64,000 bases of DNA from assembly GCA_000002445.1 (NCBI GenBank), contig CM000208.1, positions 384,001 to 448,000 of the forward strand, in the 5' to 3' direction. This DNA is from Trypanosoma brucei (taxonomy: Eukaryota). Of the stretch, positions 9,839-64,000 are shown piece by piece. Every line of letters starts with the position of its first letter. Within the stretch, counting starts at the first letter, position 1. Under the pieces are notes generated by a model that saw nothing but the letters and a program-made list of their open reading frames with translations, searched no databases and was not told the origin of the DNA. A program made the position numbers and the translations under genes.

Positions 9839-9841
<3 letters not shown>

Positions 9842-9882
<41 letters not shown>
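9842..9882. repeat. (TA)~20 dinucleotide microsatellite
   Basis: Direct reading of the sequence. Confidence 0.95.
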
Positions 9883-9884
<2 letters not shown>

Positions 9885-10738: not shown

Positions 10739-10760
10739 ATATATATATATATATATATAT
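10739..10760. repeat. (AT)11 microsatellite
   Basis: Direct reading of the sequence. Confidence 0.95.
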
Positions 10761-20348: not shown

Positions 20349-20360
20349 GGGGGGGGGGGG
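20349..20360. repeat. G12 homopolymer, one of several G or C runs of 11-13 nt in intergenic DNA
   Basis: Direct reading. Similar runs are at 7916-7927 (G12), 8635-8647 (G13), 46774-46785 (C12), 54113-54123 (C11) and 60152-60162 (C11). Confidence 0.9.
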
Positions 20361-21759
20361 AAACAAAAACAATAATATAAAAGAGGCATGCAGCGAAACG
20401 ACGCTTTCAGTCAGACATTCATTCACTTAAAAAAAGAAAAGGAGGAAAGGGATAAATGGATGGATGGATGAGAAGGAGAAGGAGAAGGGAAAAAAGCAAA
20501 GTAAAGTAAAGGAGATAAAGGGGAAAAGAAAAAAAAGAATTGAATGAATTGAAGTGACGGAAATGAACTAAAGGTGTGAAGAAATTTTTATTTTTTATTT
20601 TAAAAAAGATGAGTAGAAGGGGGAAACAGAGGAATAAAAAATTTTTTAAGAAACAAGGAAGGGGATTAATTAATTACTTTTTTTTTTCTTTCATACCTTT
20701 TTCACCTTCATCTTCACCCTTCTTTTTTTTTCCTTTTCCCCACCACCACCACCACCACCACTCCCTTCATAATTTATTCTTCACCAACAGCACTCACAAT
20801 TTGCGCAACGAAACACATCTCGTTGGGAGGAACAATACACAAGTACAAGCACACACAAATACAAGGAAATATGAATACCGGTAATAATCATAAAATTAGA
20901 ATGAAAGTGAAAATTAAAAAAAAACACCAGAATGAAACCCGTAATTATCACAAGCGATGATGACCGCTTTTTTTTTTTCCTTCTCCTATTTCTTTATTTA
21001 CTTTTTGTTTGATCATAAGGCAAGGGCTAAACAACTTATTCCCACCAATGTTATTCGCATCATCGCCTCACCGTCCTTCTGTTTTAGCATTTATTTACTG
21101 TCATTTGCATTTCCATCTCTCTCATTTTATTTTTCCTTTTCTCCCTTCCATCTGCACCCTTCTCGTATTATTTTTCTTTTTTGTTTCCTCCCCTCCCCTC
21201 CCTTTAATACATAAAATTGCTGCATACCTTCTTTTCTCAAAAAAACAAAAACAAACAACAATTTTCGCTGCTGTTATTCATATCCTCACTTATTAATATT
21301 ACTGTTGCCGTTACTGATATCACCCATCCTCTCCTCGTTTTACTCTTTCTTTCTTTTTCAAGCTTCTGTAGTTACTCGTTTTGGTATTCACTATTTTCAG
21401 AAAAAGGAAACAAAAAAAAAACTAACCATCACATCACATCACATTCCCCACCTTCTCGCATAAATAATTAATAAAAATGGAAAGAAGAATGGAAAAGAAA
21501 AAAATTGAGACAAACAGATACGGTGAAGGGGAGTGGTTGACCGCACAAACATAAACGCACACACAAACACACACGTAACAACACACAAAAATTACATATG
21601 AAAGGGCGAATGAGGGTCTTAATTTTATTTTTAAAAAAAATTAATATTAAAAAACGCTGAAAGGTGAAAAATACCAGCAACAACAAGGCAAACTAAAGAA
21701 AAAAGAAGCGTAAAGAAAAAAAAATGAAGTGAAGTGAAAACAATTCAAACCTGTGTTAC

Positions 21760-33916: not shown

Positions 33917-36900
33917 CTAGCGTAACTCAAAAAGAAAAAAATACAGGACTACGTACAATGAAGCATAAAGAAGTGAAAGCGGAAAAAGAAAAAAAGAGGT
34001 GAGAGAGTGCGCGACAATGTATAAGGTTCAGATTTTGCTATGGTGCGTAATATACTCCACAGAATACATACGCCTTTATGCGAGTTTGTGTGTACGAAAA
34101 GGGAGGAAGAAAAAAGCGTAAGAGGTTGTCATCTTAACTCCTCCCGCAGCGGTAAATCATAACACCACTCAAACCACACCAACACCTCCACTATTGCGTT
34201 ACCTACACTAAGCTGTACCATTCCTCCCATCTAGTCACACAACAACAACAACAACATAATAATAATAATAATAACCTAAACAACACAATAATATTCTCAT
34301 AATAATAACAATAGCATCTGTATTGTGGTCACAGTCATAGCGGTGACAATGACATTTTGGACAAGTGAGAGAAGAGAGGGAGAGAGCGGTAGAGTGGAAC
34401 AAACCCGTACGCGTAAAGGGGGGAAGAAAAGAAAAAAAAATGAAACAAAACCAAAAGAAAAAAAAATGAGAAATAAAAACAACAATGCTAATGACAACAA
34501 GCACAGCAAGGAAGGAAGTAAAGAGGTAAGAAGACAACAAAAGGAAGCGCAGCAAACCAAACAAATCTTCAATTTTAAAAAAAAAAATGAACCAACTTAA
34601 GGAGCCCCAATTCCTCCTATCACCCTCCACAAACACAATCTCATGTGTGATATAATGGACCAAAATGAAAAATTAAAAAAAGTTTTGCTGCAAGCCGACC
34701 TTAAGCGCTTCGTTTTGGGCCGGCACTGCAGAAGCTTTTCTCTCTGCATCCTTATCTCTTTCTTTTTTCTCTTTTAAAATACACTTTTCATTTATTTTTT
34801 TTTTCACTGCTTTCCTCCCCCTCTCTTTCCACCTATTTATTCACCCGTTTCTTAATTCATTTGCCTGCTTCATCTTCACCAGTTTCCCTCCCTCGCCTCC
34901 CTCCCACACTTCTCCACCAATGCCGCCCGGAGTTTTGCGATTCTGAGATGTGCACCTTTTTCTTTTTTTCTTCGTCGTTACATTTTTTTTTCTTTGTACC
35001 TTCTCATGCAAGGCACACACATTCCCTTTTTTCCGTCTAATTCCTCTTTCTTTCCACCTCTTTTAAGAACAAGAGCAAAAAAGAAAAATGCTGGTGTTCA
35101 TATGGGCATGCACAAATACATCTGAAATAATTTGAAGGAAGGAGGAAAATGAAAGGAAAAAAAAGGATGCAAATGCTAGTGTAGATAAATATATCTTTTA
35201 CGTATAAAAACAAATAAATGTAATTAGAGGAAGAAGAAAGAAAGAGACAAATAAAGGGAGAAAAAAGAAAAAGAAGAGCAACATAAGAAAAAAAAAGAGG
35301 AGGAAAGATAAATAACAACAGGGCAAGTAATACCCTCAAACTTAATATAAAATAATATAAAAGGGGAAAAAAGAAAAAGAAGAAACTGCTGATCATCATA
35401 TGCGCGACTCGCATGGAGGGAGGAAAGAGAAGAAGAGTTTACCCGCTTTGTTCAGTTCAGAAGTTAATTATCCTGCTCAACAACACGTAAAGGACGGCGT
35501 CACTCCTTCCAAATTCAATTCATAAATAAAAATAGTCATGCAATTCTCATGTCCCCATTGTTTGATTATATTATATTATATACATCGTTGCAGTTCTCAT
35601 AACCAATGGCTCATACCAAAATAATAATAATATTATTGTGATTAATTGTTGTTATTCTTAATGAAAATGGAAGGGGAACCAACCTTCAGTTATTCTTTAC
35701 CTCTCTTCGTATATATCTATATTTATATTCATTTATTCATTGGTCTCTTTCCTTATCACTGTATAAGCAAACACACACCGCAGGTTCGGAGACCGAGTAA
35801 AATGGCACGAGGGAAGAGAAAAGGGAATACAAGAACGCAAAAAAAAAGTGTAAGAACAAAAAACAAACAAAAGCACCAAAACAAACTCATCAATGGCACG
35901 ACGAGGAATAATGAAGAGAATGATGGTGAAATAAAAACAAAAAGGGGGCAAAAGGCGGCTCTATGAGAAGAACACACGCTGGAATCTCTTTGGTTTTGCG
36001 TCATTTATTCCCTTCTGTCACTCAATCCGTAAGTTTCATCCCCTTTCCTTCTTCTCTTTTTTTTTTTCTTCATGTTTCCTCACAACAAAATACGGTTACG
36101 GCAGTAGTACCAACCACAACTATGGTAACAGTGCCGCGGCTGATGACAATGATGGTAAATGTGAGTGTTGAAAAACAGGTTCGCAACTGTTGCATAATGA
36201 AAGGATCAGATGAGTGGAAAGAGGGGAATGCGTCCTCACGTGACAGCAGCGACACAGCAGGTAATGGAAATATAATGAAGAAGAAAAAAAAAGAAAAAGA
36301 AACAATAGCGGAAAAAACTAACAATGGAGCACAGGAAGGAAGGAAGGAAGAAAAATAAACTAAAACAAACAAATAAATATAACGGCGAAACAAAAAGAAA
36401 TGTACGACTGCTCTCTTCAGGCTCCTTTCACACACTTCTCCCCCCCCAAAAAAAAAAAATCGTTTTGTTTTGATGGTTTTATTTTCCTGTATTTATTCTC
36501 TTAAGCACAGACACACTTTACTACATTTCCCTGAACCCCTCACCGGCTATTACAACAATCATTGCAAAGTAACACATCATCATATTGTTTGCTCATAATA
36601 TTCCGTACGGAGTAAAAATATGAACACAACAAACGCGTGAAGCCGATCGCATTTAAGCTGTGACAATTTCTCCTATATTTCCCCCTTCATATGTATGTTC
36701 TTTTCCTTGTATACGACAACACAGACATATATTTGTGTTTGCTGTTTTTTTTTGCATTTTTACTCATGAGTTTTGTATTCAATTATCTCCCTTTTTATTT
36801 GCCGCGTCATGCGTTTTACCTCAACGGGGGAACACATAAGGGTTGTAAACATTGCGCCTCCGAAGCAGGCACATGTAAAGTGAAGCGAGGGGGTAATGGG

Positions 36901-37253
36901 GAAGAGAGGGCAGCGCACTCCATCACACGCGTATGAATGAATAAAATGATATGAGATGAGATAGAAAGGAAAGAAAATGGAAAATAAATGGAAAATAAAT
37001 CATACAAATACCTAAGTATTTGCTACTCGCTCATGCGTGCAAGTACGAAAACGAAAAAAATGAAAAAAAGTCAAACGACATCAAGCCGCATGCTCGCGCC
37101 ATGTCCGTACGGTTAGATGGGAAAATTTAATCGAAAGTTGCGTAAGCGAGTGAATTACGCGTGCTAACTAAAGGCGTGAGAGTGCGGTTTCATATTGTCT
37201 GACGTTAGCTCATTGTTCCCATGCACCCGTACTGGTTTAGTCCAATTTCTTTC

Positions 37254-37274
37254 GTGTGTGTGTGTGTGTGTGTG
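37254..37274. repeat. (GT)10 microsatellite
   Basis: Direct reading of the sequence. Confidence 0.95.
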
Positions 37275-37545
37275 CGCGCACGTCTGTGGCAAATAACAGA
37301 AAACGAACAAAGCTTTTTTAAAAGGGTAATGGAGGGGGGAAATGAAGAAAATAAATAAACAAATAAATAAATAAATGGAGTTAAAAAGTTAAACGCTTCC
37401 CCCCTAACCCCCAGCACCTCCCGCACCCTTCCCCTTCTCCTCTTTCACCTTAATTTTGGCACTTCAGCCCACTTGACTCAGAGTCACAGCGGAACCCAAG
37501 TCCAGCTGAAGGAAGTAGAAACACACAAACGTAAAGGCACATACG

Positions 37546-37568
37546 TATATATATATATATATATATAT
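37546..37568. repeat. (TA)11 microsatellite
   Basis: Direct reading of the sequence. Confidence 0.95.
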
Positions 37569-38074
37569 TAAGTATATAAATGTTGAGTATATGAACAGTG
37601 AGAAAATCATGTCAGATGTCAAAACCCGCATACCATCACTGCTGCTATTAATTCGGTCTCTACCCACCACACTCTTCACACCCATCACCACCACCTACAA
37701 CTCGAATCCCGCACAAAAAGACATATGAATGTATATATGTATACATATACATATGCGCGATATTAAAACACACGTGATGCCTTCAGTGTGGTACAATCTC
37801 TCAACAAGATTGAATGAAAATACCCTTACTTATTCATGTCACTTTTTACACGCCACTTTTTTACTCGTTTTTTTTATCGCCTCTTTATCTGCTTCTTCCT
37901 TTCCTCCACCATTCCTCAAACATATGCATCATTTCGCTACCCACAAACACAAATGGATACTACTACTTCTTTCGATCCTTTACTCTATAAACCCCTTTAC
38001 CATCATTTAAAATCCCCCATACGAGGAGCACCTTAACGGCACCAAAGATGTTACACATTGCTGTGGACCACCGC

Positions 38075-39769
38075 CTACGCTTTTTGCCGACGTTTCGCAC
38101 TACCGCGACCACTATTGTTGGATTGGCCCGTCAAATGCCTGCTACCACGCCTATGGCTGCCACTACAGGCATTCCTGTCGCTGCCGTTTATCCCACAGGG
38201 CGGCACACCCGCTCCAGCGGCGCAGCCGTTGCCGCTACCATTTTTGCTGTTTGGACATGTGTAGTTGTTATAACTAACACTGGCGCCATTGCGGGAGCGG
38301 GATGCACTTTCAGATCCCCTACCGTTCAAAAAGGGACTGGCACCAGCGCTTCCGTTACCATTAGTATTGTGGCCGCGATGAGTACTGCCTCTTTCACGGC
38401 CGCCTTCACCAGCAGACTTGGGTCGTACGTCAAAAATCCTTAAAACTCGGGTCACATTCGACGATCCTGCCGCAGCGGCGCCTAAATTAGGAGATCCATT
38501 TTGGCCAAGCGAACGCTGTGACGCGGGAGCGAACGGAGTGGCATCTCCCATCCCACAACTCGCAGGGCTTGTGCCACCACGGGGGGCAGTGTACAAGTTG
38601 GCATCACCTAAACTGAGCGGAGAAGCAGAATTAATCGCCGCATCCACACCAGGGTTGGCGCAGGAGACAACCTGATTCGCATGTTGGTATGGCTGCGATG
38701 CCGGTGTCATTCTCGCAGCCGGAGTGTTGTTCATAACGGAACGCCGTTGTTGATCGCAAATGATGTTAAACACCTCGTCAGTGACGTCCCCCAGGGAAAG
38801 CATCGTCGAAGAGTAGCTCCTCTCTCCGATGTTGATCATGGTCATTGATGGAGTAATACCGTTAAGCAAACACACCAAGTTTGGAGGGGGTGGGAGTTGC
38901 AAGTCATACTCGCGGCAAATATGAATATTTTTGCAATCTTCCACATAGCGGCAGAGCCGCGAAATGTGTAACCGACATACGTCCTTCGCGGGAACATCCA
39001 GTACATCCTTTCGCTCCACCTTCGCGCCATTCGCCGCACCTTGGTTGGTTTCGCCGAGGTTTTGTGACTGCTCTTCTTTCTCTTTCGCCGCTTGCGCACT
39101 CTGAGCTATGATCAACTGCAGACCGACCGTCAGTGCAACTCTTTCAGCGGGGATTAAATCAGATTGCTCACCGTTTGTGCCGCGGCTACTGTAACTCCCT
39201 TCATTTCCCACAAGTCGGATGAACTTAAACCGGTCGGTGAGCTCTGTGGTGCTGTGGGGATCCTTGTGCAGTCGGCAACACGTGGGGGCGTTGAGGGCCT
39301 GTTGACGGAGCATCGGAAGAACATGAGGAGGCACGTGGGCCTGTCGACACCACTCGTGTCGGCAGTGGCCCTCCAGAAAGGACAAACACAGCGATGGCAG
39401 CGCTCCTTTGTTGGCCGTCGCATGAGTCGGAACCATAAGCGATAACGGCACGCGCAGCTTTCGCGAGTGAGGGTCCAGCACCCACATGTAGAGCTCACCC
39501 CCCTTCACTTCATCATCACCGGCTCCGAATTTATCATCGTAACCGCAACCTGGGGAGTCTGAGTCAACGAAGTGGTGTACAGGACCTTCTGGGTGGACAA
39601 CACGCTGAACAGAGCAGGGATATGGTGGTGGCGAGACAGCGTTGGTGGCAACAGTCAAGGCGCCGTTGGGGCTAAGATATGAATCAGGTGGAATCGGTCT
39701 CTCCTCATCGGTGACGCACCACCTCGACACCCGCTCCTCTTCAATATCGTTCCTGTCAGCGGGAGGCAT
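38075..39769 (-). CDS. CCCH-type zinc-finger protein with two fingers and a Ser/Gly/Asn-rich C-terminus. It may correspond to T. brucei ZC3H30.
   Basis: The two CCCH fingers are CLSFLEGHCRHEWCRQAH (C-x7-C-x4-C-x3-H) and CRLHISRLCRYVEDCKNIH (C-x7-C-x5-C-x3-H). The ATG was checked. The ZC3H30 assignment rests only on recalled locus order. Confidence 0.75.
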   Translation of the reverse strand: MPPADRNDIEEERVSRWCVTDEERPIPPDSYLSPNGALTVATNAVSPPPYPCSVQRVVHPEGPVHHFVDSDSPGCGYDDKFGAGDDEVKGGELYMWVLDPHSRKLRVPLSLMVPTHATANKGALPSLCLSFLEGHCRHEWCRQAHVPPHVLPMLRQQALNAPTCCRLHKDPHSTTELTDRFKFIRLVGNEGSYSSRGTNGEQSDLIPAERVALTVGLQLIIAQSAQAAKEKEEQSQNLGETNQGAANGAKVERKDVLDVPAKDVCRLHISRLCRYVEDCKNIHICREYDLQLPPPPNLVCLLNGITPSMTMINIGERSYSSTMLSLGDVTDEVFNIICDQQRRSVMNNTPAARMTPASQPYQHANQVVSCANPGVDAAINSASPLSLGDANLYTAPRGGTSPASCGMGDATPFAPASQRSLGQNGSPNLGAAAAGSSNVTRVLRIFDVRPKSAGEGGRERGSTHRGHNTNGNGSAGASPFLNGRGSESASRSRNGASVSYNNYTCPNSKNGSGNGCAAGAGVPPCGINGSDRNACSGSHRRGSRHLTGQSNNSGRGSAKRRQKA

Positions 39770-41396: not shown

Positions 41397-42845
41397 CTAT
41401 GAAGCAGTCGCACCCGATTGTTGCAATTGGGCGAGAGTGATGTTATGTAGCATACGCTCCTTTACAATAAGGTGTGAAACTTTATCCAACAGCGCCACAC
41501 TGCGCCCTACAGCTTCGTCCCATGCCGTCACCACATCATTGGCGTTTTTATTCGCCTCAAAAACGACTAACCCATCCACGCGATCAATCTTCGCGTACAG
41601 TGTGCGCGAGGCGACCATCATCATGAGGAATTCCTCCGTGTGCTGCGGCGTGAGACCCACCAATTCGGCCAGTCGAACAAGACGCAGTCGGCGATAGAAG
41701 CGGGAAATGACCAAGAGGTCGTGTTCGCTGCAGCGGCTACGAAGCAACGCCTGGCGCTCAGGGAACCCAGCGAGCTGCGGGTGATTTATGCAGAGGGCCT
41801 CTACATCATCAGCAACACGCTCACGTATGAGTTCAATACTCGTAAACTTCTCCAGTAGGTATTGAAGTTGCGGATTCTCCTCCAACCGCTTCCTCAGAGT
41901 AGTAGTGATGCCTTGAATTGCTGCCGTGCGGTCGGCAAATTTTGTGGCGGGGGAAAAGGCAGCGCACTCAGCATGATCCTCCAGTTCCTTTGGCGACGAG
42001 TGCTCGGCGATAAGATAGTGCACCGCCATGCTGCTTAGGGCTGAAACACAGGCTGTTTCATCCGTTTCGGAAAGGAATGTCTCGTACCAACAGCGAGCCA
42101 CATGGAAGTAAGAACGGCGCTGCGCGAAATATTCGCGCATCAGTTCGAAATATTTAAGCTTCGCCTGCAAGGCCCCGGGTCTTGACAGGGCACGGTGGTT
42201 TATTCGGCGCGACACAAGCCGCGCGAGCTCATAATCCTCCAACTCGAGGCACAACCGGATCAAGCGGTTAAGAGCATCGAGTTTCTCCACGCGGGGCATA
42301 TTTGTCACTGTTTCCACATGCAACCCACTGAGCAAGTCGCACGCCGCCCGCTTCTCCCCATCGTCCTCCATTAACTTCGCTAAGTCGATAGCGAATCGCA
42401 CGTGCTCAAGCTCCACATGGATACGGCTGTCAGTAAGATGCACTACGCGCTCCAACACGATGCGGCGCTGCTCACGTGACAGATTGCCTTCAGTGAGGAG
42501 GACACCGCATTCAGCGATCATGGCACCCTGTGATTGTTTGGTTTGCCCACGCTTGCGCATGAGAGTTTCCAATGTGTCAAGCATTTTTTCGTGATCTCCA
42601 TGAACGCGGTAGATCCGCAATATTTCAACTACAAGACGTTTTGCCGACAGAGCATCACCACCTAGGCGCGCCATTTTCTCGAGAGCCAAAAGCTCATTAA
42701 CGAGATCGTCCAAGCTCGAATTGGTACTGCGCAAGAGAACAGGAATGGCGGTAGCATTGATGCGTTCGAGCAACGCATCTGTCGCCTCGCTGTGATCCTC
42801 CTCCTGCTTGAAGCTCGCACACTTCCACTGGTCTACGTCGGTCAT
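41397..42845 (-). CDS. RPN5: 26S proteasome regulatory non-ATPase subunit RPN5 (PCI-domain protein)
   Basis: Blocks align with yeast Rpn5 as recalled: LVNELLALEKMAR versus LDQLLVLEKKTR, and LSGLHVETVTNMPRVEK...YELARLVSRRI versus LCELQVETYGSMEMSEK...YSQATVLSRKI. A C-terminal PCI region is present (...LYAKIDRVDGLVVFE...). The ATG was checked. Confidence 0.75.
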   Translation of the reverse strand: MTDVDQWKCASFKQEEDHSEATDALLERINATAIPVLLRSTNSSLDDLVNELLALEKMARLGGDALSAKRLVVEILRIYRVHGDHEKMLDTLETLMRKRGQTKQSQGAMIAECGVLLTEGNLSREQRRIVLERVVHLTDSRIHVELEHVRFAIDLAKLMEDDGEKRAACDLLSGLHVETVTNMPRVEKLDALNRLIRLCLELEDYELARLVSRRINHRALSRPGALQAKLKYFELMREYFAQRRSYFHVARCWYETFLSETDETACVSALSSMAVHYLIAEHSSPKELEDHAECAAFSPATKFADRTAAIQGITTTLRKRLEENPQLQYLLEKFTSIELIRERVADDVEALCINHPQLAGFPERQALLRSRCSEHDLLVISRFYRRLRLVRLAELVGLTPQHTEEFLMMMVASRTLYAKIDRVDGLVVFEANKNANDVVTAWDEAVGRSVALLDKVSHLIVKERMLHNITLAQLQQSGATAS

Positions 42846-43704: not shown

Positions 43705-46188
43705 CTAGTTGGAAGCCCCTCCAGGTCGCAAAAGTATACCTTCGTATTCCGTGAAACCGGCGTCAGCATGTGGGCGACGCCCCATGAATACCCAGTCAGG
43801 TAGTAATGCGTCATTCATGGCGGTCTTTCTTCCCTTCTGATTATGCTCTTCCTCACTTACCTCCTCATCTTCCTCTTCCCTCCCCTGGTGCTGCCGTTGC
43901 TGCTTTTGCTCCTCGCAGATCGGTTGTTCTTGTTTGTGCTGCACAAACGGTAACACATCGTTCAAATACAGACGGGCCTGAGCCACGACATCGGCGTGTT
44001 GACTCCTCTTCAATAGCAGCTGTTGCGACCAGTCATTGGTGGTGTAACGGTTGTGAAGCATCCGTTCTACACGCATTTCGCTCGCTCCGCTGAGAAACCC
44101 AACCGACTCTTGCCGCCTCTCCTTCACTTCATCATTTTTCTCATCATCACCTTCGGCACCGCGACCCGCATCCCCTTTTGTGCGGCCATCGAATCCCCCC
44201 AGAACGCGGCCTGCCATTCGGCCCTTTACAATGCATTCCAGTAAAACTTGACTACGTGTGGTGTGATTAACAATCGCATGTCCCAAGTCACGCGAGGCGC
44301 GCAGTAACAACACTACCGTCTCCACATCCTCTGCCCTCAAATGAGCCCCCACCCTTCTCGACAAGGTAATTATTTGCATTGCAACGTCTGTCAAAGAGGT
44401 CGTGGCCACGCCGTAAAATAGCTGTTGCGCTGCTGATGGCTCCGCTGAGTGGCGGAGCGCACATGCCACCGATGAAAAGAGCCGTCGCAGGGCCCGCTGC
44501 CCAAAAAGACGCAACGCCCGACGCATGTGCCCTGGGTTCCATGGAACGGCAAATGCGGGAACGCCATCCGCAATCTGCTTCATTTTACCGCGATGCTCTC
44601 CGACATTCCACCCCACACCAAGAAGAAATAACAGTCCCTGCACAGCGTTGTGCCACTGTTTGGCTAAACGTGTGTGAACAAACGGTGCCGTCTCAATTGC
44701 AAACACTGTTACAAGCACCGTCTTTACCTCCCGCACCCCATCCCCCATGCGAGATAAGGGGGTTGCCAAAGCGTAATGCAAGTAAAGGGGCAGCCACGAC
44801 CCAGTTACACGTTCCTTGTTAAGCAGAGAAAGTTCCTGGTGATATTCCACCTCAGCAGCCTCACCGTCGTCGCCGTCCACACCGCTCCCTACAACCGTGC
44901 GCAGGGCAGGCACATCGGAGCGAAACGGCTCGGGAAGCGGAAGCCATGTCGCCCCGCGTAGCACATCGGTCGTGTAAGGCCCACTTGCCAGCGAAACCTC
45001 AGCGAATTCCATTCGCCTCCACCACTGCTCCGTCTCCACAACCTCAGAAGTCGAAGAATCCTCAGCGGTATCCTGCCATTGTGACACAACAATGTGTGTC
45101 TCCTTCTCAGAATCGTACATAGTTGCAAGTGGAGTGCGCCGGGCCGTCAGGTGGATTAGGTCAAAGGAAGTCATTGTGAAAGACCCTTCGGAGGGCGAGT
45201 CCTGTGGAACCAGGCACGTAAACTGCAACACGTATAACGAACTCTCCTTAAGGCGAAGTGTCACCACCAGCATATACGATCCAGCAAACTCAACCCGCTC
45301 CGCAATTGTGTCTTTGGGAAAAGTGATGTGCTGTAACTTCCGCGACGCACAAGGGGCCATCAGATCTAACACATAACACTTTGAGCCATTGTCGTTCAAC
45401 ACAGCTGCGTAAGTCCGGTCCTTTGTCTTCGTTTCAGCACCGCCTTTCCCGCAACAGTTGCGAGAAACCACTAGCGCAGGTGTGGTGTGCGTGCCGCGGG
45501 TACGCCGAATCATGACGCTCAATGAGGCAACCTGCTCGCACGTCGTCTCCATTGTTTCCATGCGGGACACGGTAGCCCGTACCAAGCGGCCGCTGCCTGT
45601 AAGCACAAGTAGTGATGTGGCTGAAAGTGCTTGAATGCTGCGAATACCTTCGGCAGTAAAACCTGTGTCCACCACACGGGCTTCAGATATGAATGACCGC
45701 CACCTGACATTGCTTAGGTTCTCAGAGGATGGGATACTAAACCTTGTGGCAATACACAACTCTGCCCGGGTTTCACTCTCGTCCTTGCATTCGACGAGGA
45801 AGGCAACAATATTAGCACTTAGACAGCACACGTCAAGCACGCGCGCCGCGGGGTCGGCGGAACTAGCACGCGCCACCCACTGCAGTGCCCACGTGTCGCA
45901 TCGGAATACGGCGACGTGGAAGAATAGCTCTGTTGATGCTTGTCCTTTTGTACGATTGAAAGCCACGGCTACGTGCTCACCCGCCAACTTTCGTTTCTTT
46001 GACCGACCCATTCCAGCGTCTTGCGCACCCCCCGACGCAAAGGCACTCCATGAAGTTGCCCACGCAGCAGAGGCCTCAGGAGCGGCTTCACTTACCAGCC
46101 GTATCCTTCCCGACGGCCTTCTTCCGTGTAGATCCATGAACAAATCATGGTAAGCGACCCGCTTGCTCGCCGATAAACTGAGTGCCAT
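43705..46188 (-). CDS. Hypothetical protein of 827 aa
   Basis: A long ORF in the transcription-unit orientation. The track begins it at a TTG at 46194, and the first ATG is at 46188-46186. I recognise no domain. The C-terminus is acidic and Q-rich. Confidence 0.6.
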   Translation of the reverse strand: MALSLSASKRVAYHDLFMDLHGRRPSGRIRLVSEAAPEASAAWATSWSAFASGGAQDAGMGRSKKRKLAGEHVAVAFNRTKGQASTELFFHVAVFRCDTWALQWVARASSADPAARVLDVCCLSANIVAFLVECKDESETRAELCIATRFSIPSSENLSNVRWRSFISEARVVDTGFTAEGIRSIQALSATSLLVLTGSGRLVRATVSRMETMETTCEQVASLSVMIRRTRGTHTTPALVVSRNCCGKGGAETKTKDRTYAAVLNDNGSKCYVLDLMAPCASRKLQHITFPKDTIAERVEFAGSYMLVVTLRLKESSLYVLQFTCLVPQDSPSEGSFTMTSFDLIHLTARRTPLATMYDSEKETHIVVSQWQDTAEDSSTSEVVETEQWWRRMEFAEVSLASGPYTTDVLRGATWLPLPEPFRSDVPALRTVVGSGVDGDDGEAAEVEYHQELSLLNKERVTGSWLPLYLHYALATPLSRMGDGVREVKTVLVTVFAIETAPFVHTRLAKQWHNAVQGLLFLLGVGWNVGEHRGKMKQIADGVPAFAVPWNPGHMRRALRLFGQRALRRLFSSVACALRHSAEPSAAQQLFYGVATTSLTDVAMQIITLSRRVGAHLRAEDVETVVLLLRASRDLGHAIVNHTTRSQVLLECIVKGRMAGRVLGGFDGRTKGDAGRGAEGDDEKNDEVKERRQESVGFLSGASEMRVERMLHNRYTTNDWSQQLLLKRSQHADVVAQARLYLNDVLPFVQHKQEQPICEEQKQQRQHQGREEEDEEVSEEEHNQKGRKTAMNDALLPDWVFMGRRPHADAGFTEYEGILLRPGGASN

Positions 46189-47709
46189 TAACAAACAAAC
46201 CTACAAGTCAATCCAGTAATCACGTGTCACCTTTTCTCACTGTTTCCTCTTACCCTTTCCCCGTACGTAGCGACTTTTTCCGTGCGCAGCCTCTCTTATC
46301 TGCCAACGCGTGGTTCTCCACTCCTTCCCCCTTCCCTTTTTTTTACTTTATTTCCAGCCTTCTATATCGTTGTGGTAGCGAGGCGCAGCTGCCCTCCTTC
46401 GGCCACACACAAGCAAAGACCAGCTGGGATTGAGACGATGGGCCCGGACGGCCACCACCTACACTAACTTTTGTGAGAAGGGGAAGTCACGGCAGGAGAC
46501 AAGGCGGGCAGAGTGGAGTAAGAATTATGTAAGGAGACGAAAAAGAAGGGGGAGAAACAAGTGATGGTCAAGCAATACAGACAGCAAAAGAGAATGCATG
46601 ATTACCTGCTCCAAAGGATCTCACTACAGATGGAACGGCCTGCAGAAAGTATTTGTCAGTCGTTTCGCTCTTTCGTCACTGGCTTCTTCAGCGCACAGAA
46701 GAAGTTTTAAGTCATCGCAATAAAACGATCATGCGGATGTGGCTCAAACTGCCGTTCCTCGCACCCCGTATTTCCCCCCCCCCCCATACACACACACACG
46801 GGACCACGAATCGGATTCCCACAAGTACGAATCTACGTGCAAAAAGGGGTGGGAGAAACAAGACAAAACAATAAGTCAAAACAAGAAGAGTAGAGGTCGA
46901 GAGTGCCCAACTGTAAAGATATTACACACCGAGATGGCGTATGCGTGTGCGCGAGTGCAGCTGGTTCACATCGTGTTCCTTTCCAGCCCTTCAAGTGATT
47001 ACTTCCTTTTCCCCTCCCTTGCTTCCACTTCACACGAACAGTTTCCCTTCACCCTCTGCTGCACCTCCATCCTCATTAGGCTAAGGTGCAGGTGAGCGAG
47101 TGGCAGCATGCCCACATTCGTCGCCCCCTCTTCTGCTTCGCTTGTGTAGGGAAAGAAATATACGAAGGTCAGCCGTTCGTGCATCTGTTTGAACACCGTA
47201 AACGCGCTGCCTTCACTCCCTTCCCATATTCGACCTGGTGCCGGCGCCGTTTAGAGTACTCGCATCACCGTCACTACCTTTGTTATGACTCTTGGCTTCA
47301 CCGTTGCTCCTCACGTTCTCTAGCTTGGCCTGCTGCTGTACCCACACGGCTGAAAGAGATATAAATAATAATAATAATAATGAATGTTTCAGCTGATATC
47401 CAGCATTTACATGTTTCGCACGCCGAACGCTACACTTATAAACGGCCGCGTTTCCTTGTTCACTGACGTTAATTCGCTTCCTCCTACACTGTCAACAACC
47501 ATATGTGCCCTTTTTTTTAAAATTTTTCGTTTAACGCTACGGTGACAACAGATCTCTCCTATTAATCCACTTTTTTGTTAACTTTCGTGCTCCTAACTTT
47601 GCCTACCACCTATAACTCCGCGTACCGGAATATCCCTAATGCCCCGTGCCCAAACATGCGGAAAGAGGCAGGTGCTAGCCGGCACGCGCAGCGCTAAGGA
47701 GGAACGTCT

Positions 47710-50625: not shown

Positions 50626-51756
50626 TTACTTCAGAACTTGCCTGACGGAGACACCGCGGGAAAACTCCTCCCGCAACTTGCTGTCAATGAACCCCGACAA
50701 AGCGCCTTCCTGCGAGCGTTCAAACACTAATGCTAACCACCGCTTTCGTGGGAAGGGGACGCATCCAAGACCTTTGACTTTGTAGTCCATCCCCATGCCC
50801 AAGTCCCACACTTTACACCCTACGGAGCGCATCACCTCCCCCACAACCGCTAGCTGAAGCGTTCCTGCACCGCTCGCGCAGTAGGCACCTGTAGCAGAGG
50901 TATAAATATCGCCAACAACGAACCCGACTTCAGCTGCAACGAGGTCACCTTCCTCAACATGATCACCATGTGCGCGGTTACACATGGCGCTGCCTCCACT
51001 GCTTTCGGTCTTGGCATCCGTCCCAACATCATGACGGTGGCGCCGAATTGCTGTAAAAACAATTTTTGTACGGTATCGCTCGCTGTTCACGAACATATGC
51101 ACAAGACACACGCGAAGGCCATGACAGAGCCAGTTCTCTCCGTGCTGTGCATGTATGAGAGAAAGCACAGGGGCCACATCTTCCTTCCGGTTCACGAACA
51201 CATCGTAGGAAGCTGCACGCGTACTCAAATTTCTCTCACGTGTATATTTCTTTGACACCTGCAGCCGCTTCACCATGAAGACTCCCTCATCATCATCACC
51301 TCCCGTGGGGAACCCCTTTACATGCGACTGCAGCTGCGTTAGATAGCGTTGGCAGTGTAGTTTAGGACCGTAAACAAACGAACCTCCGATATCAAAGGCC
51401 AACGGGAACACTCCTCGCTGACACGATGCGTCTATTATCTGGGGAGAAAACGTGGTTGAGAAGCCCATTTCATTTTCCCCACCACTAGCCAAAAATCGCG
51501 AAACAAAGGAGTCTATCTCGTCTGCGCTACGTAACCGCGGATACCACATCGACAGTGCCCCAGCCATGGAGGGAGACAGGCTCGACTCGACAGAAACGTC
51601 CTTCTTCTTTATAGCCTCTGAAACCTCATTGCTAACCCTTTCTGCCTCCGGCAGCACCTTTTCAGATTTTACTCTGTAATGTTGTGTTGTATGCCGCATT
51701 AAACTGGTGGCTTCATCCCAAGAAAACCAGAACAAAAGAGAAGTGGATTGGTACAT
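50626..51756 (-). CDS. Leu/Phe-tRNA-protein transferase (bacterial Aat/LFTR)-like protein
   Basis: The CQRGVFPLAFDIGGSFVYGP block aligns with E. coli Aat ([21 protein letters not shown]), and the C-terminal block EGDLVAAEVGFVVGDIY...KVWDLG aligns with [23 protein letters not shown]...KLIDCQ. The track's ORF starts at a TTG, and the first ATG is at 51756-51754. The functional call comes from motifs I recalled, so confidence in it is only moderate. Confidence 0.5.
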   Translation of the reverse strand: MYQSTSLLFWFSWDEATSLMRHTTQHYRVKSEKVLPEAERVSNEVSEAIKKKDVSVESSLSPSMAGALSMWYPRLRSADEIDSFVSRFLASGGENEMGFSTTFSPQIIDASCQRGVFPLAFDIGGSFVYGPKLHCQRYLTQLQSHVKGFPTGGDDDEGVFMVKRLQVSKKYTRERNLSTRAASYDVFVNRKEDVAPVLSLIHAQHGENWLCHGLRVCLVHMFVNSERYRTKIVFTAIRRHRHDVGTDAKTESSGGSAMCNRAHGDHVEEGDLVAAEVGFVVGDIYTSATGAYCASGAGTLQLAVVGEVMRSVGCKVWDLGMGMDYKVKGLGCVPFPRKRWLALVFERSQEGALSGFIDSKLREEFSRGVSVRQVLK

Positions 51757-52700
51757 CCATCTGCACGCACAACTATTTGTACTAATGAGCAAGTGATTGA
51801 GTCAGTGAGTACCACAAAAATAAGTAAAACTCTCTTCAGTAAAATTCTTCGGAGGAAAAAGAAAGACCGTTCATAGCAATATTGCAGCGGACAGGCCGGG
51901 GGAAGTAAACAGCGAAAGGGAAGGCTATAAGTGGTCTTTAGTTTTTAAAACGGTCACTCTTTACACAAGTACCACGGACTCCAAAGTACTCTTCCAACGC
52001 CCAAAGGCGACAGACACCAATAGCGTAATAAGTCCTGCTTCCTAACACTGACTGCAGGAAGGGCATGCAGCATTTTCCGTAAGCCGTGCAACTGTGCCGG
52101 CCCTACAACCACTCCCAATGCCACAGTACCTACCACCACTTGGTATCAGCAGCATTCTGCGTCACGTCCAGGAGCCGGGGAATTTAGAGAGGAAAATGTA
52201 GTGAACTCACTCAAAATTCACCCCCCCCCTGATAACGCTAATTAAACAAAGAAAATAACGACGTCGCACCCCACGCACTTGTCGTGCATCTCCATAGGAT
52301 GCGAATGAAGTGCCGATACCAGAACCAGCACAAGAGCAGCCAATGAGAATGGGGTATCCCTTTATTTACCCTTCGTTCGGCTTTGGAGTGAGTATCGACC
52401 TACCAGTACCTTCCAGTGGTGTGACCGCTGTCAACACCGACAAAAATACCTACCTCAGACGCACACAAGTGTGCAACGGTAGATATGGGCGCACAACATG
52501 CGAGTTACAGCGACCAAGTAAGATAAAGTAATAATCACTTGGGTTCAGACCAAACGGGACTCGGAGTATACAGTTCGTAGACCCGATATAGTTCCATACC
52601 ACTTTCCACAAACCTCCACCATTCCTCACACCGCTTCCCATCGACCCAGAACCACACACACGCGCACCCGTGCAAGAAAAGAGGGGAGTGGTGGGGTCCA

Positions 52701-53144
52701 TTAGTGAACACCAAGTCCCCACTGAAAGCTGAGGTCACGAAATACCACTCTCCCATCCCTCACCACTAATGACTCTCGCACCCGCCGCTGGGAAAATTTT
52801 GTAAACCAGCTTCCAACCAAAGGGATCGCTGCCATACCACCTGACGTAAAATGTGCAAAACCTTGACGCTCGAAGGTATTCGGCGTGATGACAGTTACTT
52901 GAGTTGACCAGGATAGGCGAAGAGCCGAATGCTCTTTCCTCATCACAGCGAGTGCGGCAACTTGTCCTCTTACGACACCCCAGAAATTGGCATAGTGCAC
53001 CTCAGGCCCCATGAGGCTACCTAACTCCTCCGATTCCCCGTCGTCCTCGGCGGCACAAAACAGTTTCGCGGTGGCCAGGTTCGTCGCGAGCTCCCCATTA
53101 GGGTCATCTACGAGAAGCCTCAGTTTACGGAGACTATATGACAT
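52701..53144 (-). CDS. Hypothetical protein of 147 aa
   Basis: An ORF in the transcription-unit orientation with coding-like composition. The track starts it at a GTG, and the first ATG is at 53144-53142 (MSYSLRKLRLLVDD...). I recognise no domain. Confidence 0.45.
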   Translation of the reverse strand: MSYSLRKLRLLVDDPNGELATNLATAKLFCAAEDDGESEELGSLMGPEVHYANFWGVVRGQVAALAVMRKEHSALRLSWSTQVTVITPNTFERQGFAHFTSGGMAAIPLVGSWFTKFSQRRVRESLVVRDGRVVFRDLSFQWGLGVH

Positions 53145-53476
53145 GAATCCTTCCCCTAACACACAATGGCGCCTTATTCCTCGTTAGGTTCCCTCCTATT
53201 CCGTCCCCTCCCACCTACGGTTTACTTGCAACCACAGCTAAGACGAATGAAGAACAACTCTGCTTCCACACTCCTCTCTCAAGGATAACTTATCTTTATT
53301 CACCTTATAATGAGACATAAAACGGTGTAGAAAGATCCTACTAAACAGATGAGTTCGAAGACCCCGTGAGCGGAAGGTGTATACCACAGCCGTGGAAATG
53401 TAGTCAGGTGGGAGAAGTCAACCGCCGCTCGGCCTGCGCATATTTCTCCCACAGGGTTAGTCGACCTAACCGAAGG

Positions 53477-62160: not shown

Positions 62161-63048
62161 CTACTGGAACGGTACAGATCCATGTCTCTCATCCGGACTG
62201 ACGCTTAACACAGTTTTAATTGCCTCTGGCTCGCTACCGTACATCAGCTGAAGGTTCGATGCGACTGCGGGAGGTACGTAAGCAGCCGCCTTTGAGTCTG
62301 AGTTCACTCCTTGAATCATCGGGACCACGCCCACCCTCCTGAGAAAATAATCGACGCGATGAGCCGGGCTGTCATTCCTCAGTAGCGTGTCCTTTGTGCT
62401 ACCGGCAAGGTTTAACAATGACCTCTGGTTACCACTTGAGAGTATCTCACGAAGTGTGCCAAAGGCAACGTCACGGCTGAACTGCACGCCGCGACCGTAC
62501 TCAGGATATCGTGTAATGAGCCAGGGGAAAAAAGTAATGAATGGATTTATCCTTCGTTCTGCGAGGTACTCATCCTTAATCCGCTGACGGCTAGATTTGT
62601 CGTACTGTATGGTGAAGAGCAAATAAGTCGCTTGCTCATCTACACTTCCAATCCACAAAGGTAATGCCAAATCCTCTGATACACCGCCAAAAAGCCGCTG
62701 TATAATGATTTTCGACGAAACAAAAACAAGCACCACACCAGTAAAAAACATGAGCCAGTCAACGCGACGCTCTCCTTGGGATAAGTTTCCAAAATTAGGG
62801 GCATTTCCTTGGGAAGCTTCGCGAGCACGAAAAGCAGCACTGGTCGCCAGCCCTCCCATCGCGAAATGTCCATAACTGAAGCCGGAAAATTCGGATATGC
62901 TGAGTCCCTTATATTTTTTGGCTACCTTTTCTCTAAGCGCCAACTCTCTTGACCGCTCTTGGGGGTCCTCATTGATTATCATCCTCCTTGGAACAAGTCC
63001 ACCGTGAAAAAGAATAACCGAACAACGGCGTAGTTCCTGACGAAACAT
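62161..63048 (-). CDS. Hypothetical protein of 296 aa with one predicted transmembrane helix (WLMFFTGVVLVFVSSKIIIQRLF)
   Basis: The track's ORF starts at a GTG at 63120, and the first ATG is at 63048-63046. Immediately upstream, a minus-strand polypyrimidine tract followed by AG supports this start. I recognise no domain. Confidence 0.5.
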   Translation of the reverse strand: MFRQELRRCSVILFHGGLVPRRMIINEDPQERSRELALREKVAKKYKGLSISEFSGFSYGHFAMGGLATSAAFRAREASQGNAPNFGNLSQGERRVDWLMFFTGVVLVFVSSKIIIQRLFGGVSEDLALPLWIGSVDEQATYLLFTIQYDKSSRQRIKDEYLAERRINPFITFFPWLITRYPEYGRGVQFSRDVAFGTLREILSSGNQRSLLNLAGSTKDTLLRNDSPAHRVDYFLRRVGVVPMIQGVNSDSKAAAYVPPAVASNLQLMYGSEPEAIKTVLSVSPDERHGSVPFQ

Positions 63049-63070
63049 ATTCCCTTCCCCACCCCCAGGA

Positions 63071-63103
63071 GAAATTAAAATTAGAGAAAAAATAGAAAAA
63101 AAA
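63071..63103 (-). promoter_or_regulatory. Polypyrimidine tract with a downstream AG, a candidate trans-splice acceptor signal for the gene starting at 63048
   Basis: The minus strand reads ...ttttttttctattttttctctaattttaatttctcctgggggtggggaagggaatATG. This follows the established kinetoplastid polyY + AG trans-splicing signal architecture. Confidence 0.4.
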
Positions 63104-64000
63104 CGGCACTCATTTATCACGAAAAGGGGAACTGCTCGTCGCCGTTACAACATGCCCCCAACAGAGATTTTCTTCTCCCCAGAACCTAAATTATCACATC
63201 ATGTCCCGCACAAATTCATACAAATAGGGGACAACGTAACTATGAATAATGTCCCTAATAACACTTTAATGCCACAAAGACTAGAAAATTGGGTCCCAGC
63301 GGCTGCCCAAACAGTCGTGAACGCCGAAATTTGAAACCCACCACAAACACACCGGAAACGACCGAATAGCACGGACCCCACTGGAGCCCACCCCCTGCGG
63401 AAACGTCACGATAACAAGCCGCTGTAGGATCCACAAAAGCTTCTTACCAACCGGACACTCGTGTTGTAACGCCCTAGGGTCAACAGACACGCGCAGCAAG
63501 CAATGTCGCCCATGCTGGGAGCCTCCACAAAATTTACACCGGGCGACGTCAAGCCCCACCGTCCAGCGCCACTCGATTGAATACCGCCGGGTCGATCCAG
63601 CGCAGGGGAAGCACCACCAGCAGTGTGACAGCAAGAGGGGGGAACCCCCACTTCCCATCCGAGGCTGAGCTCTGCCCCCTCGAGAGGAGGGGAACACACA
63701 CACAGACGCTCGCGGACTGACAGCAACTGCGAAGTGAAACACAGATTCATTTCCACTACCACCCGTGGCGGTCCGCCGCGCCAGGCAGACACCCCCGGAG
63801 GTCAGTGGTAGCAGGTTCGCTCCTGCAACGGCACATCGCGTTCGACCGCCGCAGCCTACCAAAAATTCTGTTTTTCCCCCATGTGGTTGGAATAGGTCCG
63901 GTGCCGAAGAGTCGAGTGGTTTACTTCGGACCAGCCCACAAGTGACGGAAGCAGATTAAATTCTTACGTGCGGAAAAGTGGATCATGTCTGCGTGCCCCT

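What the first reader, a model, noticed from the sequence alone, without database searches (positions are those of the whole stretch)
50626..51756. Bacterial-type Leu/Phe-tRNA-protein transferase (N-end-rule Aat)-like gene in a eukaryotic gene array
The protein carries the QRG(I/V)FP block and a C-terminal D-L-V...G...G...K.WD...LG block that line up with E. coli Aat, the L/F-transferase of the bacterial N-end rule. Eukaryotes normally use ATE1 arginyltransferase instead, and L/F-transferase homologues are restricted to a few protist lineages. The gene sits within the minus-strand array here, with no unusual composition. This would mark aminoacyl-tRNA-dependent N-terminal tagging in a trypanosome. 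It could also be a divergent GNAT-fold enzyme with a different substrate.
Basis: partly seen in the sequence, partly recalled or inferred. Interest (0 to 1): 0.55.

Follow-up and report, generated by a model that had tools for sequence, protein, structure and literature searches.

The report
Trypanosome Aat-like aminoacyl-tRNA protein transferase
This Trypanosoma brucei gene really does encode a relative of the bacterial enzyme that tags protein N-termini using charged tRNA. It is already annotated and its Leishmania counterpart has been published, and its altered active site suggests it adds arginine rather than leucine or phenylalanine.

Summary
The ORF at 50626-51756 (-) is real. It is 100% identical to an annotated T. 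brucei TREU927 protein that UniRef names 'Leucyl/phenylalanyl-tRNA protein transferase'.

On its own the protein hits nothing in Pfam, NCBIfam or PDB sequences, but homology is firm:
- A broad family profile aligns to E. coli Aat with hhalign probability 98.8%, E 5e-17.
- Orthologues reach PF03588.

The finding is not new. Sharma et al. 2018 described the Leishmania orthologue LmjF.21.0725 as essential and cytosolic, with activity untested. They also report that Plasmodium has an Aat-like enzyme that transfers arginine.

The protein belongs to a distinct subtype whose active site differs from E. coli Aat:
- Catalytic Asp186 is kept (D318).
- Donor-pocket Met144 is an invariant Glu (E276).
- Ile185 is Trp.
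- Both anchors for a basic acceptor residue are lost (Glu156 to Ala, Gln188 to Gly).

The subtype is widespread in stramenopiles and occurs in at least 221 bacterial genomes, mostly spirochaetes. I read it as an aminoacyl-tRNA protein transferase that more likely transfers Arg than Leu/Phe. That specificity is inferred, not shown.

The parts
50626..51756 (-). Annotated CDS, 376 aa plus stop: Aat-like (ATEL1-type) aminoacyl-tRNA protein transferase homologue
51697..51699 (-). Met20, the probable true initiation codon
   Evidence: Trypanosoma orthologues with a complete N-terminus start here, with conserved M(R/L/K)HT..H(F/Y). Residues 1-19 are not conserved and residues 1-11 have pLDDT below 50. 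A short polypyrimidine run at 51734-51743 and AGs at 51712 and 51705 lie just upstream.
51848..51866 (-). 16-nt polypyrimidine tract followed by AG: candidate trans-splice acceptor for this gene
   Evidence: Sequence read and pattern scan. Inferred from the known trypanosome splice-site pattern, not tested.
51469..51699 (-). N-terminal helical extension (residues 20-96). Its first ~50 residues are kinetoplastid-specific and have no counterpart in E. coli Aat.
   Evidence: Alignments A1 and A2. Helices 35-50, 62-68 and 78-90 in the model. The hhalign match to E. coli begins at residue 97.
51355..51468 (-). Small N-terminal (non-GNAT) domain equivalent to E. coli Aat residues ~27-62. It includes the QRGVFP motif (51403-51420) and the PKLH motif.
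   Evidence: hhalign. MAFFT columns. G115, P118, K132 and H134 are invariant in kinetoplastids.
50698..51354 (-). C-terminal GNAT-like catalytic domain (residues 135-353), equivalent to E. coli Aat residues ~63-220
50953..51036 (-). Kinetoplastid-specific, poorly conserved loop insertion (residues 241-268)
   Evidence: pLDDT below 50 for residues 246-260. The stretch is gapped or variable in A1 and absent from other family members and from E. coli.
50887..50943 (-). Beta-hairpin LVAAEVGFVVGDIYTSATG (residues 272-290) that lines the donor amino-acid pocket. E276 replaces E. coli M144, Y285 replaces F153, A288 replaces E156 and G290 replaces M158.
   Evidence: Column mapping in three independent alignments. 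E276 is invariant in 21 of 21 kinetoplastid sequences, 134 of 137 other family sequences and 77 of 79 bacterial subtype sequences.
50779..50808 (-). WDLGMGMDYK motif (residues 317-326). W317 replaces I185, D318 equals catalytic D186, G320 replaces Q188, Y325 replaces H193 and K326 replaces T194.
   Evidence: Proposed roles of D186 and Q188 come from bioRxiv 10.1101/2022.07.20.500667 and PMC4964394.

Best explanation
The gene encodes a cytosolic aminoacyl-tRNA-dependent protein transferase of the L/F-transferase fold. It has a small N-terminal domain plus a C-terminal GNAT-like domain, and belongs to a distinct, widespread subtype of Pfam PF03588.

Shown here: homology, fold, retention of the catalytic Asp (D318), of Trp209 (E. 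coli W111) and of the basic helix residues K169 and R173 (E. coli R76 and R80), and strong conservation across kinetoplastids.

Inferred mechanism:
- The enzyme binds the 3' end of an aminoacyl-tRNA.
- The amino-acid side chain sits in a pocket formed by E276, Y285, L302, V305 and W317.

In E. coli this pocket is all-hydrophobic. Here it carries an invariant carboxylate flanked by aromatic residues. The two E. coli residues that hold a basic acceptor side chain are replaced by Ala and Gly.

The most likely reaction is therefore transfer of Arg (or another basic residue) from Arg-tRNA to non-basic, probably acidic, N-termini. That is the activity reported for the P. falciparum Aat-like enzyme. 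The tagged proteins would then feed an Arg/N-degron-type ubiquitin-proteasome route, not the bacterial ClpS/ClpAP route.
For: Identity and annotation.

Fold:
- AF2 pLDDT 86.9, pTM 0.88.
- In Foldseek the top 9 PDB hits are all E. coli L/F-transferase, E 5.8e-8.

Sequence:
- Orthologues hit PF03588: Phytomonas 25.0 bits against a gathering score of 22.7, and P0025 77 bits.
- 132-sequence family profile against E. coli Aat: probability 98.8%, E 5.2e-17.
- Intermediate family members hit E. coli Aat by phmmer at 1e-17 to 1e-9.

Active site: M144 to E276, F153 to Y285, M158 to G290, I185 to W317, E156 to A288, Q188 to G320 and T194 to K326, with D186 = D318 and W111 = W209 retained. These residues are invariant or nearly so in kinetoplastids, 137 other family representatives and 79 bacterial members. 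The exception is the E156 position, which is never acidic but varies among Ala, Leu, Met, Phe and Tyr.

Roles of the E. coli residues: PMC4964394 and bioRxiv 10.1101/2022.07.20.500667.

Precedent that a pocket Glu specifies Arg: klAte1 has Glu277 where the Leu-transferase Bpt has Gln189 (PMC9351520).

P. falciparum Aat-like enzyme with arginyl-transferase activity; Leishmania orthologue LmjF.21.0725 cytosolic and essential: PMC6135404. Orthology is confirmed by the published peptide LKKEAAIQRKAEIR matching the C-terminal tails of P0012 and P0014.

One metagenomic family member is named 'arginyl-tRNA--protein transferase' by IMG.

The title of de Oliveira et al. 2017 reports protein arginylation in T. 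cruzi (reference lists).
Against: - No enzyme activity has been measured for any kinetoplastid member. Sharma et al. could not obtain enough protein.
- I could not obtain the P. falciparum sequence, so I have not shown that it carries the E276/W317/G320/K326 signature.
- Residue roles are transferred from E. coli by alignment at 16-17% identity. I could not inspect model coordinates or dock a ligand.
- Gln188, part of the proton relay proposed for E. coli, is absent, so the catalytic details must differ.
- Trp49, which stacks on A76 in E. coli, is Leu or Met here.
- I did not test whether T. brucei also has a canonical ATE1, a UBR-box recognin or ClpS.
- The T. brucei protein itself does not reach any Pfam threshold.
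Confidence: 0.55

Rival explanations
1. It is a canonical bacterial-type L/F-transferase. It would add Leu or Phe from Leu-tRNA or Phe-tRNA to N-terminal Arg or Lys, as in E. coli.
For: Same fold and family. Database names say so. Catalytic Asp, W111 and basic tRNA-side residues are conserved. L302 (E. coli L170) is kept.
Against: - Pocket Met144 is an invariant Glu.
- Both anchors for the basic acceptor residue (Glu156, Gln188) are replaced by Ala (or Leu) and Gly throughout the subtype (with roles).
- The assayed Plasmodium homologue is reported as an Arg-transferase.
- From general knowledge, not tested here: the ClpS/ClpAP machinery that reads Leu/Phe N-degrons is not known in the trypanosome cytosol.
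Confidence: 0.12
2. It is an aminoacyl-tRNA-dependent transferase with a different donor, a different acceptor, or both. Examples would be Lys or another amino acid as donor, or a non-protein acceptor, as in the FemX and MprF relatives.
For: - The active site differs from E. coli at most specificity positions.
- The subtype is common in spirochaetes with no conserved proteolysis-linked neighbourhood.
- A Glu plus aromatic pocket would also fit Lys.
Against: - The N-terminal domain, which Fem and MprF enzymes lack in this form, is conserved.
- The Plasmodium precedent is protein arginylation.
Confidence: 0.22
3. It is a catalytically inactive scaffold, or an acyl-CoA-using GNAT enzyme that no longer uses aminoacyl-tRNA.
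For: Gln188 and Trp49 of E. coli are lost. InterPro only reports a generic acyl-CoA N-acyltransferase superfamily domain for the Leishmania orthologue.
Against: - About 25 residues are invariant from Bodo to Trypanosoma and cluster on the catalytic hairpin and the WDLGM..YK motif.
- D318, W209 and the basic helix are retained.
- The same signature is kept over 1146 sequence clusters.
- The Leishmania gene is essential.
Confidence: 0.06

Closest known systems
[quoted passage not shown]
   Same: - Motif order G-(I/V)-F-P, H-(I/V)-S-(K/R)-basic, W111, LV..-x-G, D186, LG..PR.
- Catalytic Asp and basic tRNA-side residues.
   Different: - Only 16-17% identity.
- Donor pocket M144/F153/M158/I185 becomes E/Y/G/W.
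- Acceptor anchors E156 and Q188 become A and G.
- W49 becomes L.
- H193 and T194 become Y and K.
- Extra N-terminal helices (residues 20-96) and two loop insertions.
- Eukaryotic cytosolic setting without the ClpS/ClpAP pathway (the last point is from general knowledge).
Plasmodium falciparum Aat-like arginyl-transferase (GenBank ABG02898.1; 'ATEL1' is my recollection of its published name; Graciet et al. 2006, described in PMC6135404)
   Same: - A eukaryotic (protist) protein with L/F-transferase-like sequence.
- Sharma et al. grouped it with kinetoplastid and oomycete homologues of the Leishmania orthologue.
- Its reported Arg-transferase activity matches what the acidic pocket here predicts.
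   Different: - Only about 20% identical to the Leishmania orthologue.
- I could not retrieve its sequence, so sharing of the signature residues is untested.
- Activity is shown for Plasmodium, not for any kinetoplastid.
Leishmania major LmjF.21.0725 (Sharma et al. 2018, PMC6135404)
   Same: - Orthologue: Leishmaniinae proteins P0012 and P0014 are 42-43% identical to the window protein.
- Their C-terminal tails match the published LmjF.21.0725 peptide.
- Phyre2 also modelled it on 2CXA.
- Cytosolic, low abundance, essential in promastigotes.
   Different: - The Leishmania proteins carry a Lys-rich C-terminal tail that the Trypanosoma proteins lack.
- There are no T. brucei-specific experiments in the papers I could search.
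Eukaryotic ATE1 arginyl-transferase and bacterial Bpt (Pfam ATE_N/ATE_C)
   Same: - Same chemistry class: aminoacyl-tRNA to a protein N-terminus, on a GNAT-type catalytic domain.
- ATE1's Arg pocket uses one Glu plus Ser and Tyr, similar in composition to the E276/Y285/S287/T289 hairpin here.
   Different: - Different domain architecture.
- Any similarity of the Arg pocket would be convergent, and I have not tested it structurally.

Membership tests
L/F-transferase family (Pfam PF03588 Leu_Phe_trans) | Significant sequence or profile match to the family | tested here: met
   The T. brucei protein alone has no hit. Orthologues match: Phytomonas 25.0 bits against a cut-off of 22.7, T. vivax 20.5 bits, P0025 77 bits. 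11 of 22 orthologues match at E<=1. Family profile A2 against E. coli Aat gives hhalign probability 98.8%, E 5.2e-17.
L/F-transferase family (Pfam PF03588 Leu_Phe_trans) | Two-domain fold: small N-terminal domain plus C-terminal GNAT-like domain | tested here: met
   [not shown]
L/F-transferase family (Pfam PF03588 Leu_Phe_trans) | Catalytic Asp (E. coli D186) and conserved Trp (W111) | tested here: met
   D318 and W209 are invariant in all groups.
L/F-transferase family (Pfam PF03588 Leu_Phe_trans) | Basic residues on the tRNA-facing helix (E. coli R76, R80) | tested here: met
   K169 and R173. The columns are K or R in most family members. Assignment of these residues to tRNA binding is from my own knowledge of the E. 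coli literature.
Canonical Leu/Phe-specific, Arg/Lys-directed transferase (E. coli Aat type, EC 2.3.2.6) | All-hydrophobic donor pocket M144, F153, L170, F173, I185 | tested here: not met
   The pocket is E276, Y285, L302, V305, W317, with the Glu invariant. The pocket definition is from PMC4964394.
Canonical Leu/Phe-specific, Arg/Lys-directed transferase (E. coli Aat type, EC 2.3.2.6) | E156 and Q188 anchoring the basic N-terminal residue of the acceptor; Q188 in the proposed proton relay | tested here: not met
   A288 (Leu or Ala in most of the family) and G320 (invariant).
Canonical Leu/Phe-specific, Arg/Lys-directed transferase (E. coli Aat type, EC 2.3.2.6) | W49 stacking on the 3'-terminal adenosine | tested here: not met
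   L119 here; Met, Leu or Ile in the subtype.
Canonical Leu/Phe-specific, Arg/Lys-directed transferase (E. coli Aat type, EC 2.3.2.6) | Leu/Phe transfer activity | not testable with these tools
   Needs a biochemical assay. None has been reported for kinetoplastids.
Plasmodium-type Aat-like arginyl-transferase (Graciet et al. 2006) | Aat-like sequence or fold in a eukaryote | tested here: met
   The window is a trypanosome polycistron.
Plasmodium-type Aat-like arginyl-transferase (Graciet et al. 2006) | Shares specificity residues with the assayed P. falciparum enzyme | not tested
   The P. falciparum sequence could not be retrieved. Searches returned none, and the paper PMC1413915 is not held.
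Plasmodium-type Aat-like arginyl-transferase (Graciet et al. 2006) | Arg-tRNA-dependent arginylation of N-terminal Asp or Glu | not testable with these tools
   Inferred only, from the invariant pocket Glu and the loss of the basic-acceptor anchors.
ATE1/Bpt family (Pfam ATE_N, ATE_C) | Sequence match and ATE fold | tested here: not met
   [not shown]
FemABX / aminoacyl-phosphatidylglycerol synthase families | Tandem GNAT architecture and best structural match | tested here: not met
   [not shown]

The most novel reading that the evidence does not exclude
The Glu276 / Trp317-Asp-x-Gly320 / Tyr-Lys326 subtype may be a coherent second class of Aat-fold enzymes. It is defined here across kinetoplastids, stramenopiles and at least 221 bacterial genomes, mainly Spirochaetota. 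Its members would transfer Arg (or another basic residue) rather than Leu/Phe. If so, kinetoplastids would run their essential N-terminal arginylation through this enzyme, and N-terminal arginylation would also exist in free-living and pathogenic spirochaetes such as Treponema.
Probability: 0.3. Interest if true: 0.6.

Novelty: already known. Interest (0 to 1): 0.3.

Why it matters
- **What it would mean.** If the enzyme is active, trypanosomes tag protein N-termini with an amino acid taken from charged tRNA, using a bacterial-fold enzyme that humans lack.
- **Drug-target angle.** The Leishmania orthologue is reported as essential, which makes the enzyme a candidate drug target.
- **Practical gain from this check.** It warns against the database name. 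The active-site residues argue against Leu/Phe-to-Arg/Lys chemistry and point to arginylation, which changes which assay and which substrates to try first.
- **Leads.** The subtype signature and its spread into spirochaetes are modest, checkable leads rather than a discovery.

Tried and rejected
- **Single-sequence searches** of the T. brucei protein against Pfam, NCBIfam and PDB sequences found nothing relevant. One chance cyclophilin hit had E 1.3.
- **A kinetoplastid-only profile** (A1) against PDB sequences missed Aat and gave only a chance Vps22 hit at E 0.28. hhalign of A1 against E. coli Aat was weak (probability 39%, E 3e-4). Only the broad family profile A2 gave a decisive score.
- **A homologous-protein search with the 132-sequence alignment** was swamped by word matches and returned mainly kinetoplastids. 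A consensus-sequence query worked, but its top 120 hits were stramenopiles and included no Plasmodium sequence.
- **The Graciet et al. 2006 paper** (PMC1413915) is not held. 'ATEL1' occurs in no relevant held paper.
- **The afdb50 fold library** was unavailable.
- **Literature searches** for ATE1 or UBR N-recognins in trypanosomes gave nothing usable, so I left the presence of ATE1, UBR or ClpS in T. brucei untested. A guess at the gene's TriTrypDB identifier found nothing relevant, so I give no identifier.
- **Bacterial gene neighbourhoods.** I clustered the neighbours of the 80 bacterial loci looking for ClpS/ClpA or other proteolysis genes. The largest recurrent neighbour family occurs in only 11 of 80 loci and is unrelated by eye, so there was no functional hint.
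- **A neighbour-joining tree** put E. coli Aat on a long branch outside the subtype and recovered kinetoplastids as one clade. It did not resolve eukaryote-bacterium relationships, so I draw no conclusion on origin or horizontal transfer.
- **Rejected readings.** ATE1/Bpt family member, FemX-type enzyme and ordinary acetyl-CoA GNAT.
Full report
**1. What is at the coordinates**

A minus-strand ORF ends at 50626. From the ATG at 51756 it encodes 376 aa (re-translated). It is 100% identical over its full length to a Trypanosoma brucei brucei TREU927 protein on a 4.05-Mb contig. NCBI calls that protein 'hypothetical protein, conserved' and UniRef calls it 'Leucyl/phenylalanyl-tRNA protein transferase'.

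The window is an ordinary trypanosome polycistron. Every ORF above 220 aa that matched a Pfam family is on the minus strand. They include a protein kinase, an MKT1-like protein, methionyl-tRNA synthetase, NOT1, a Rab GTPase, proteasome subunit RPN5, RPL36e (immediately downstream), a dual-specificity phosphatase and ABCE1. GC content around the gene is 0.50, like its neighbours.

The start codon is doubtful. Other Trypanosoma orthologues begin at the position of Met20 (window 51699) with a conserved M-x-H-T..H-F/Y. Residues 1-11 are modelled with pLDDT below 50. Polypyrimidine/AG splice-acceptor candidates exist both upstream of Met1 and between Met1 and Met20.

**2. Is the resemblance to Aat real?**

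On its own the protein matches nothing in Pfam, NCBIfam or PDB sequences, even at E<=10. That explains the NCBI 'hypothetical' label. Four independent lines establish homology.

- **Orthologues.** They exist in every kinetoplastid sampled, from Trypanosoma, Leishmania, Phytomonas and Leptomonas out to Bodo and a protein labelled 'Tbor' in EukProt. Eleven of 22 hit PF03588 at E<=1. Phytomonas passes the curated cut-off (25.0 against 22.7 bits). A more distant relative, P0025, links both sides: E 4e-13 to T. brucei and 77 bits to PF03588.
- **Wider family.** An exhaustive profile search found 1146 clusters at 50% identity. Many of these hit E. coli Aat directly by phmmer at 1e-17 to 1e-9.
- **Profile comparison.** A 132-sequence family profile aligns to E. 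coli Aat with hhalign probability 98.8%, E 5.2e-17. It covers E. coli residues 27-220 and T. brucei residues 97-353.

**3. What kind of Aat-like enzyme?**

I mapped the functionally assigned E. coli residues onto the family in three alignments that agree. Their roles come from two sources.

- The GNAT review PMC4964394 says W49 stacks on the 3'-terminal adenosine. It says M144, F153, L170, F173 and I185 form the highly hydrophobic pocket for the Leu/Phe side chain. It says E156 and Q188 anchor the basic side chain of the acceptor's N-terminal Arg or Lys.
- The ATE1 structure preprint describes a proposed Q188/D186 proton relay.

| E. coli residue | Role in E. coli | T. brucei residue |
|---|---|---|
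| D186 | proposed proton relay | D318 (kept) |
| W111 | conserved Trp | W209 (kept) |
| R76, R80 | basic helix, tRNA side | K169, R173 (kept as basic) |
| M144 | donor pocket | E276 |
| F153 | donor pocket | Y285 |
| M158 | pocket residue by my recollection; not in the list | G290 |
| I185 | donor pocket | W317 |
| E156 | acceptor anchor | A288 |
| Q188 | acceptor anchor, proton relay | G320 |
| W49 | stacks on A76 | L119 |
| H193, T194 | not assigned | Y325, K326 |

These replacements are not kinetoplastid quirks. E276, for example, is Glu in 21 of 21 kinetoplastid sequences, 134 of 137 other family representatives and 77 of 79 bacterial members. The family is therefore a sharply defined subtype with a remodelled specificity site around a conserved catalytic Asp.

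**4. Likely mechanism**

*Shown:* fold, catalytic Asp, tRNA-side basic residues and strong purifying conservation of the active-site hairpin and the WDLGM..YK motif.

*Inferred:*
- The enzyme still uses an aminoacyl-tRNA donor and a protein N-terminus as acceptor.
- A pocket with a buried carboxylate flanked by Tyr and Trp suits a guanidinium or ammonium side chain, not Leu or Phe.
- Loss of both acidic/polar anchors for a basic acceptor argues that the acceptor is not Arg or Lys.
- The new invariant Lys326 (and K132 and H134 in the PKLH motif) are candidates for binding an acidic acceptor side chain.

Two precedents fit this reading:
- In K. lactis Ate1 the Arg pocket contains a single essential Glu (Glu277). 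The related Leu-transferase Bpt has Gln at that position (PMC9351520).
- The one biochemically assayed protist Aat-like enzyme, from P. falciparum, is reported to have arginyl-transferase activity on Asp, Glu or oxidised Cys N-termini (PMC6135404 citing Graciet et al. 2006).

Two weaker hints point the same way. One metagenomic member is labelled 'arginyl-tRNA--protein transferase' by IMG. A paper I could see only as a citation reports protein arginylation in T. cruzi.

I therefore favour an Arg-transferase feeding an Arg/N-degron-like pathway, with confidence about 0.55 for the whole statement. Homology and fold alone I put above 0.95.

The main gaps:
- There is no activity data for any kinetoplastid member.
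- I could not obtain the P. falciparum sequence to check the signature.
- I could not inspect model coordinates.
- I did not determine whether T. brucei has ATE1, UBR-box recognins or ClpS.

**5. What is already known**

Sharma et al. 2018 (PMC6135404) studied LmjF.21.0725, the Leishmania major orthologue. Its published antigenic peptide LKKEAAIQRKAEIR matches the C-terminal tails of the Leishmaniinae proteins in my alignment.

Their findings:
- Phyre2 modelled it on E. coli 2CXA.
- They noted homologues in Bodo, oomycetes and apicomplexans.
- The protein was cytosolic and of low abundance.
- The gene could be deleted only when an episomal copy was present.
- They could not purify enough protein to assay it.

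Several trypanosome orthologues already carry the L/F-transferase name in UniRef or NCBI.

**6. Distribution**

A consensus query returned 410 proteins. The listed top 120 all carry PF03588, and the named ones come from diatoms, oomycetes (Phytophthora, Aphanomyces, Albugo, Pythium) and other protists. A labyrinthulid member, Hondaea, was identified separately.

A scan of one genome per bacterial or archaeal species, using the subtype motif WD[LF]GMx[MLI]xYK, found 221 confirmed loci. Most are in Spirochaetota: Treponema, Alkalispirochaeta alkalica DSM 8900, Leptospirales and Gracilinema. Others are in SAR324, Thiomargarita, Achromatium, some cyanobacteria and Myxococcota.

These bacterial proteins also carry residues not used for selection: Glu at M144, Tyr at F153, Ser at G155 and Gly at M158. 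Their gene neighbourhoods are not conserved and gave no functional clue.

A rough neighbour-joining tree puts E. coli Aat on a long branch outside the subtype and recovers kinetoplastids as one clade. It does not resolve how the eukaryotic and bacterial members relate.

**7. Verdict**

Novelty is 'already known'. The residue-level argument against Leu/Phe specificity and the spirochaete distribution are small additions that I could not check against the key 2006 paper.

Interest is 0.3. The gene matters as an untested, probably essential parasite enzyme absent from humans, but a specialist would not be surprised by its presence.

Noticed in passing
window 51697-51756 (-): The annotated start (Met1, 51756) is probably too far upstream. 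Orthologues start at Met20 (51699), and residues 1-19 are unconserved and modelled with low confidence. Polypyrimidine/AG splice-acceptor candidates lie at 51851-51866/51848 and at 51734-51743/51712.
   Followed up: partly
L001-L080 (bacterial loci): The same active-site subtype (Glu for M144, Trp-Asp-x-Gly-Met, Tyr-Lys) is encoded in at least 221 bacterial species genomes. Most are Spirochaetota, with some SAR324, Thiomargarita, Achromatium, cyanobacteria and Myxococcota. There is no conserved gene neighbourhood.
   Followed up: partly
window 8001-12000, 20001-22000, 34001-38000: AT-rich stretches (GC 0.33-0.39, against about 0.5 elsewhere). The first holds two plus-strand ORFs (8913-9677 and 9785-10498) with no Pfam match, inside an otherwise minus-strand array.
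   Followed up: no
window 17055-19376 (-) and 41397-42845 (-): The same polycistron contains methionyl-tRNA synthetase and proteasome lid subunit RPN5. Both are thematically close to tRNA-dependent N-terminal tagging and proteolysis. In a trypanosome polycistron this is most likely coincidence.
   Followed up: no
P0026 (EukProt protein, 1021 aa): The best non-self hit of the kinetoplastid profile (682 bits) is a 1021-aa protein with two matched stretches. It may be a tandem duplication, a fusion or a gene-model merge.
   Followed up: no
window 52701-53162 (-), 43705-46194 (-), 38075-39769 (-), 31469-33916 (-), 62161-63120 (-): Five minus-strand ORFs in the array (153 to 829 aa) have no Pfam family at E<=0.001.
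   Followed up: no
reference lists seen: de Oliveira et al. 2017 (Int J Mass Spectrom 418:51-66) reports protein arginylation in T. cruzi according to its title. The paper is not in the held library. It bears directly on whether trypanosomes have an R-transferase.
   Followed up: no
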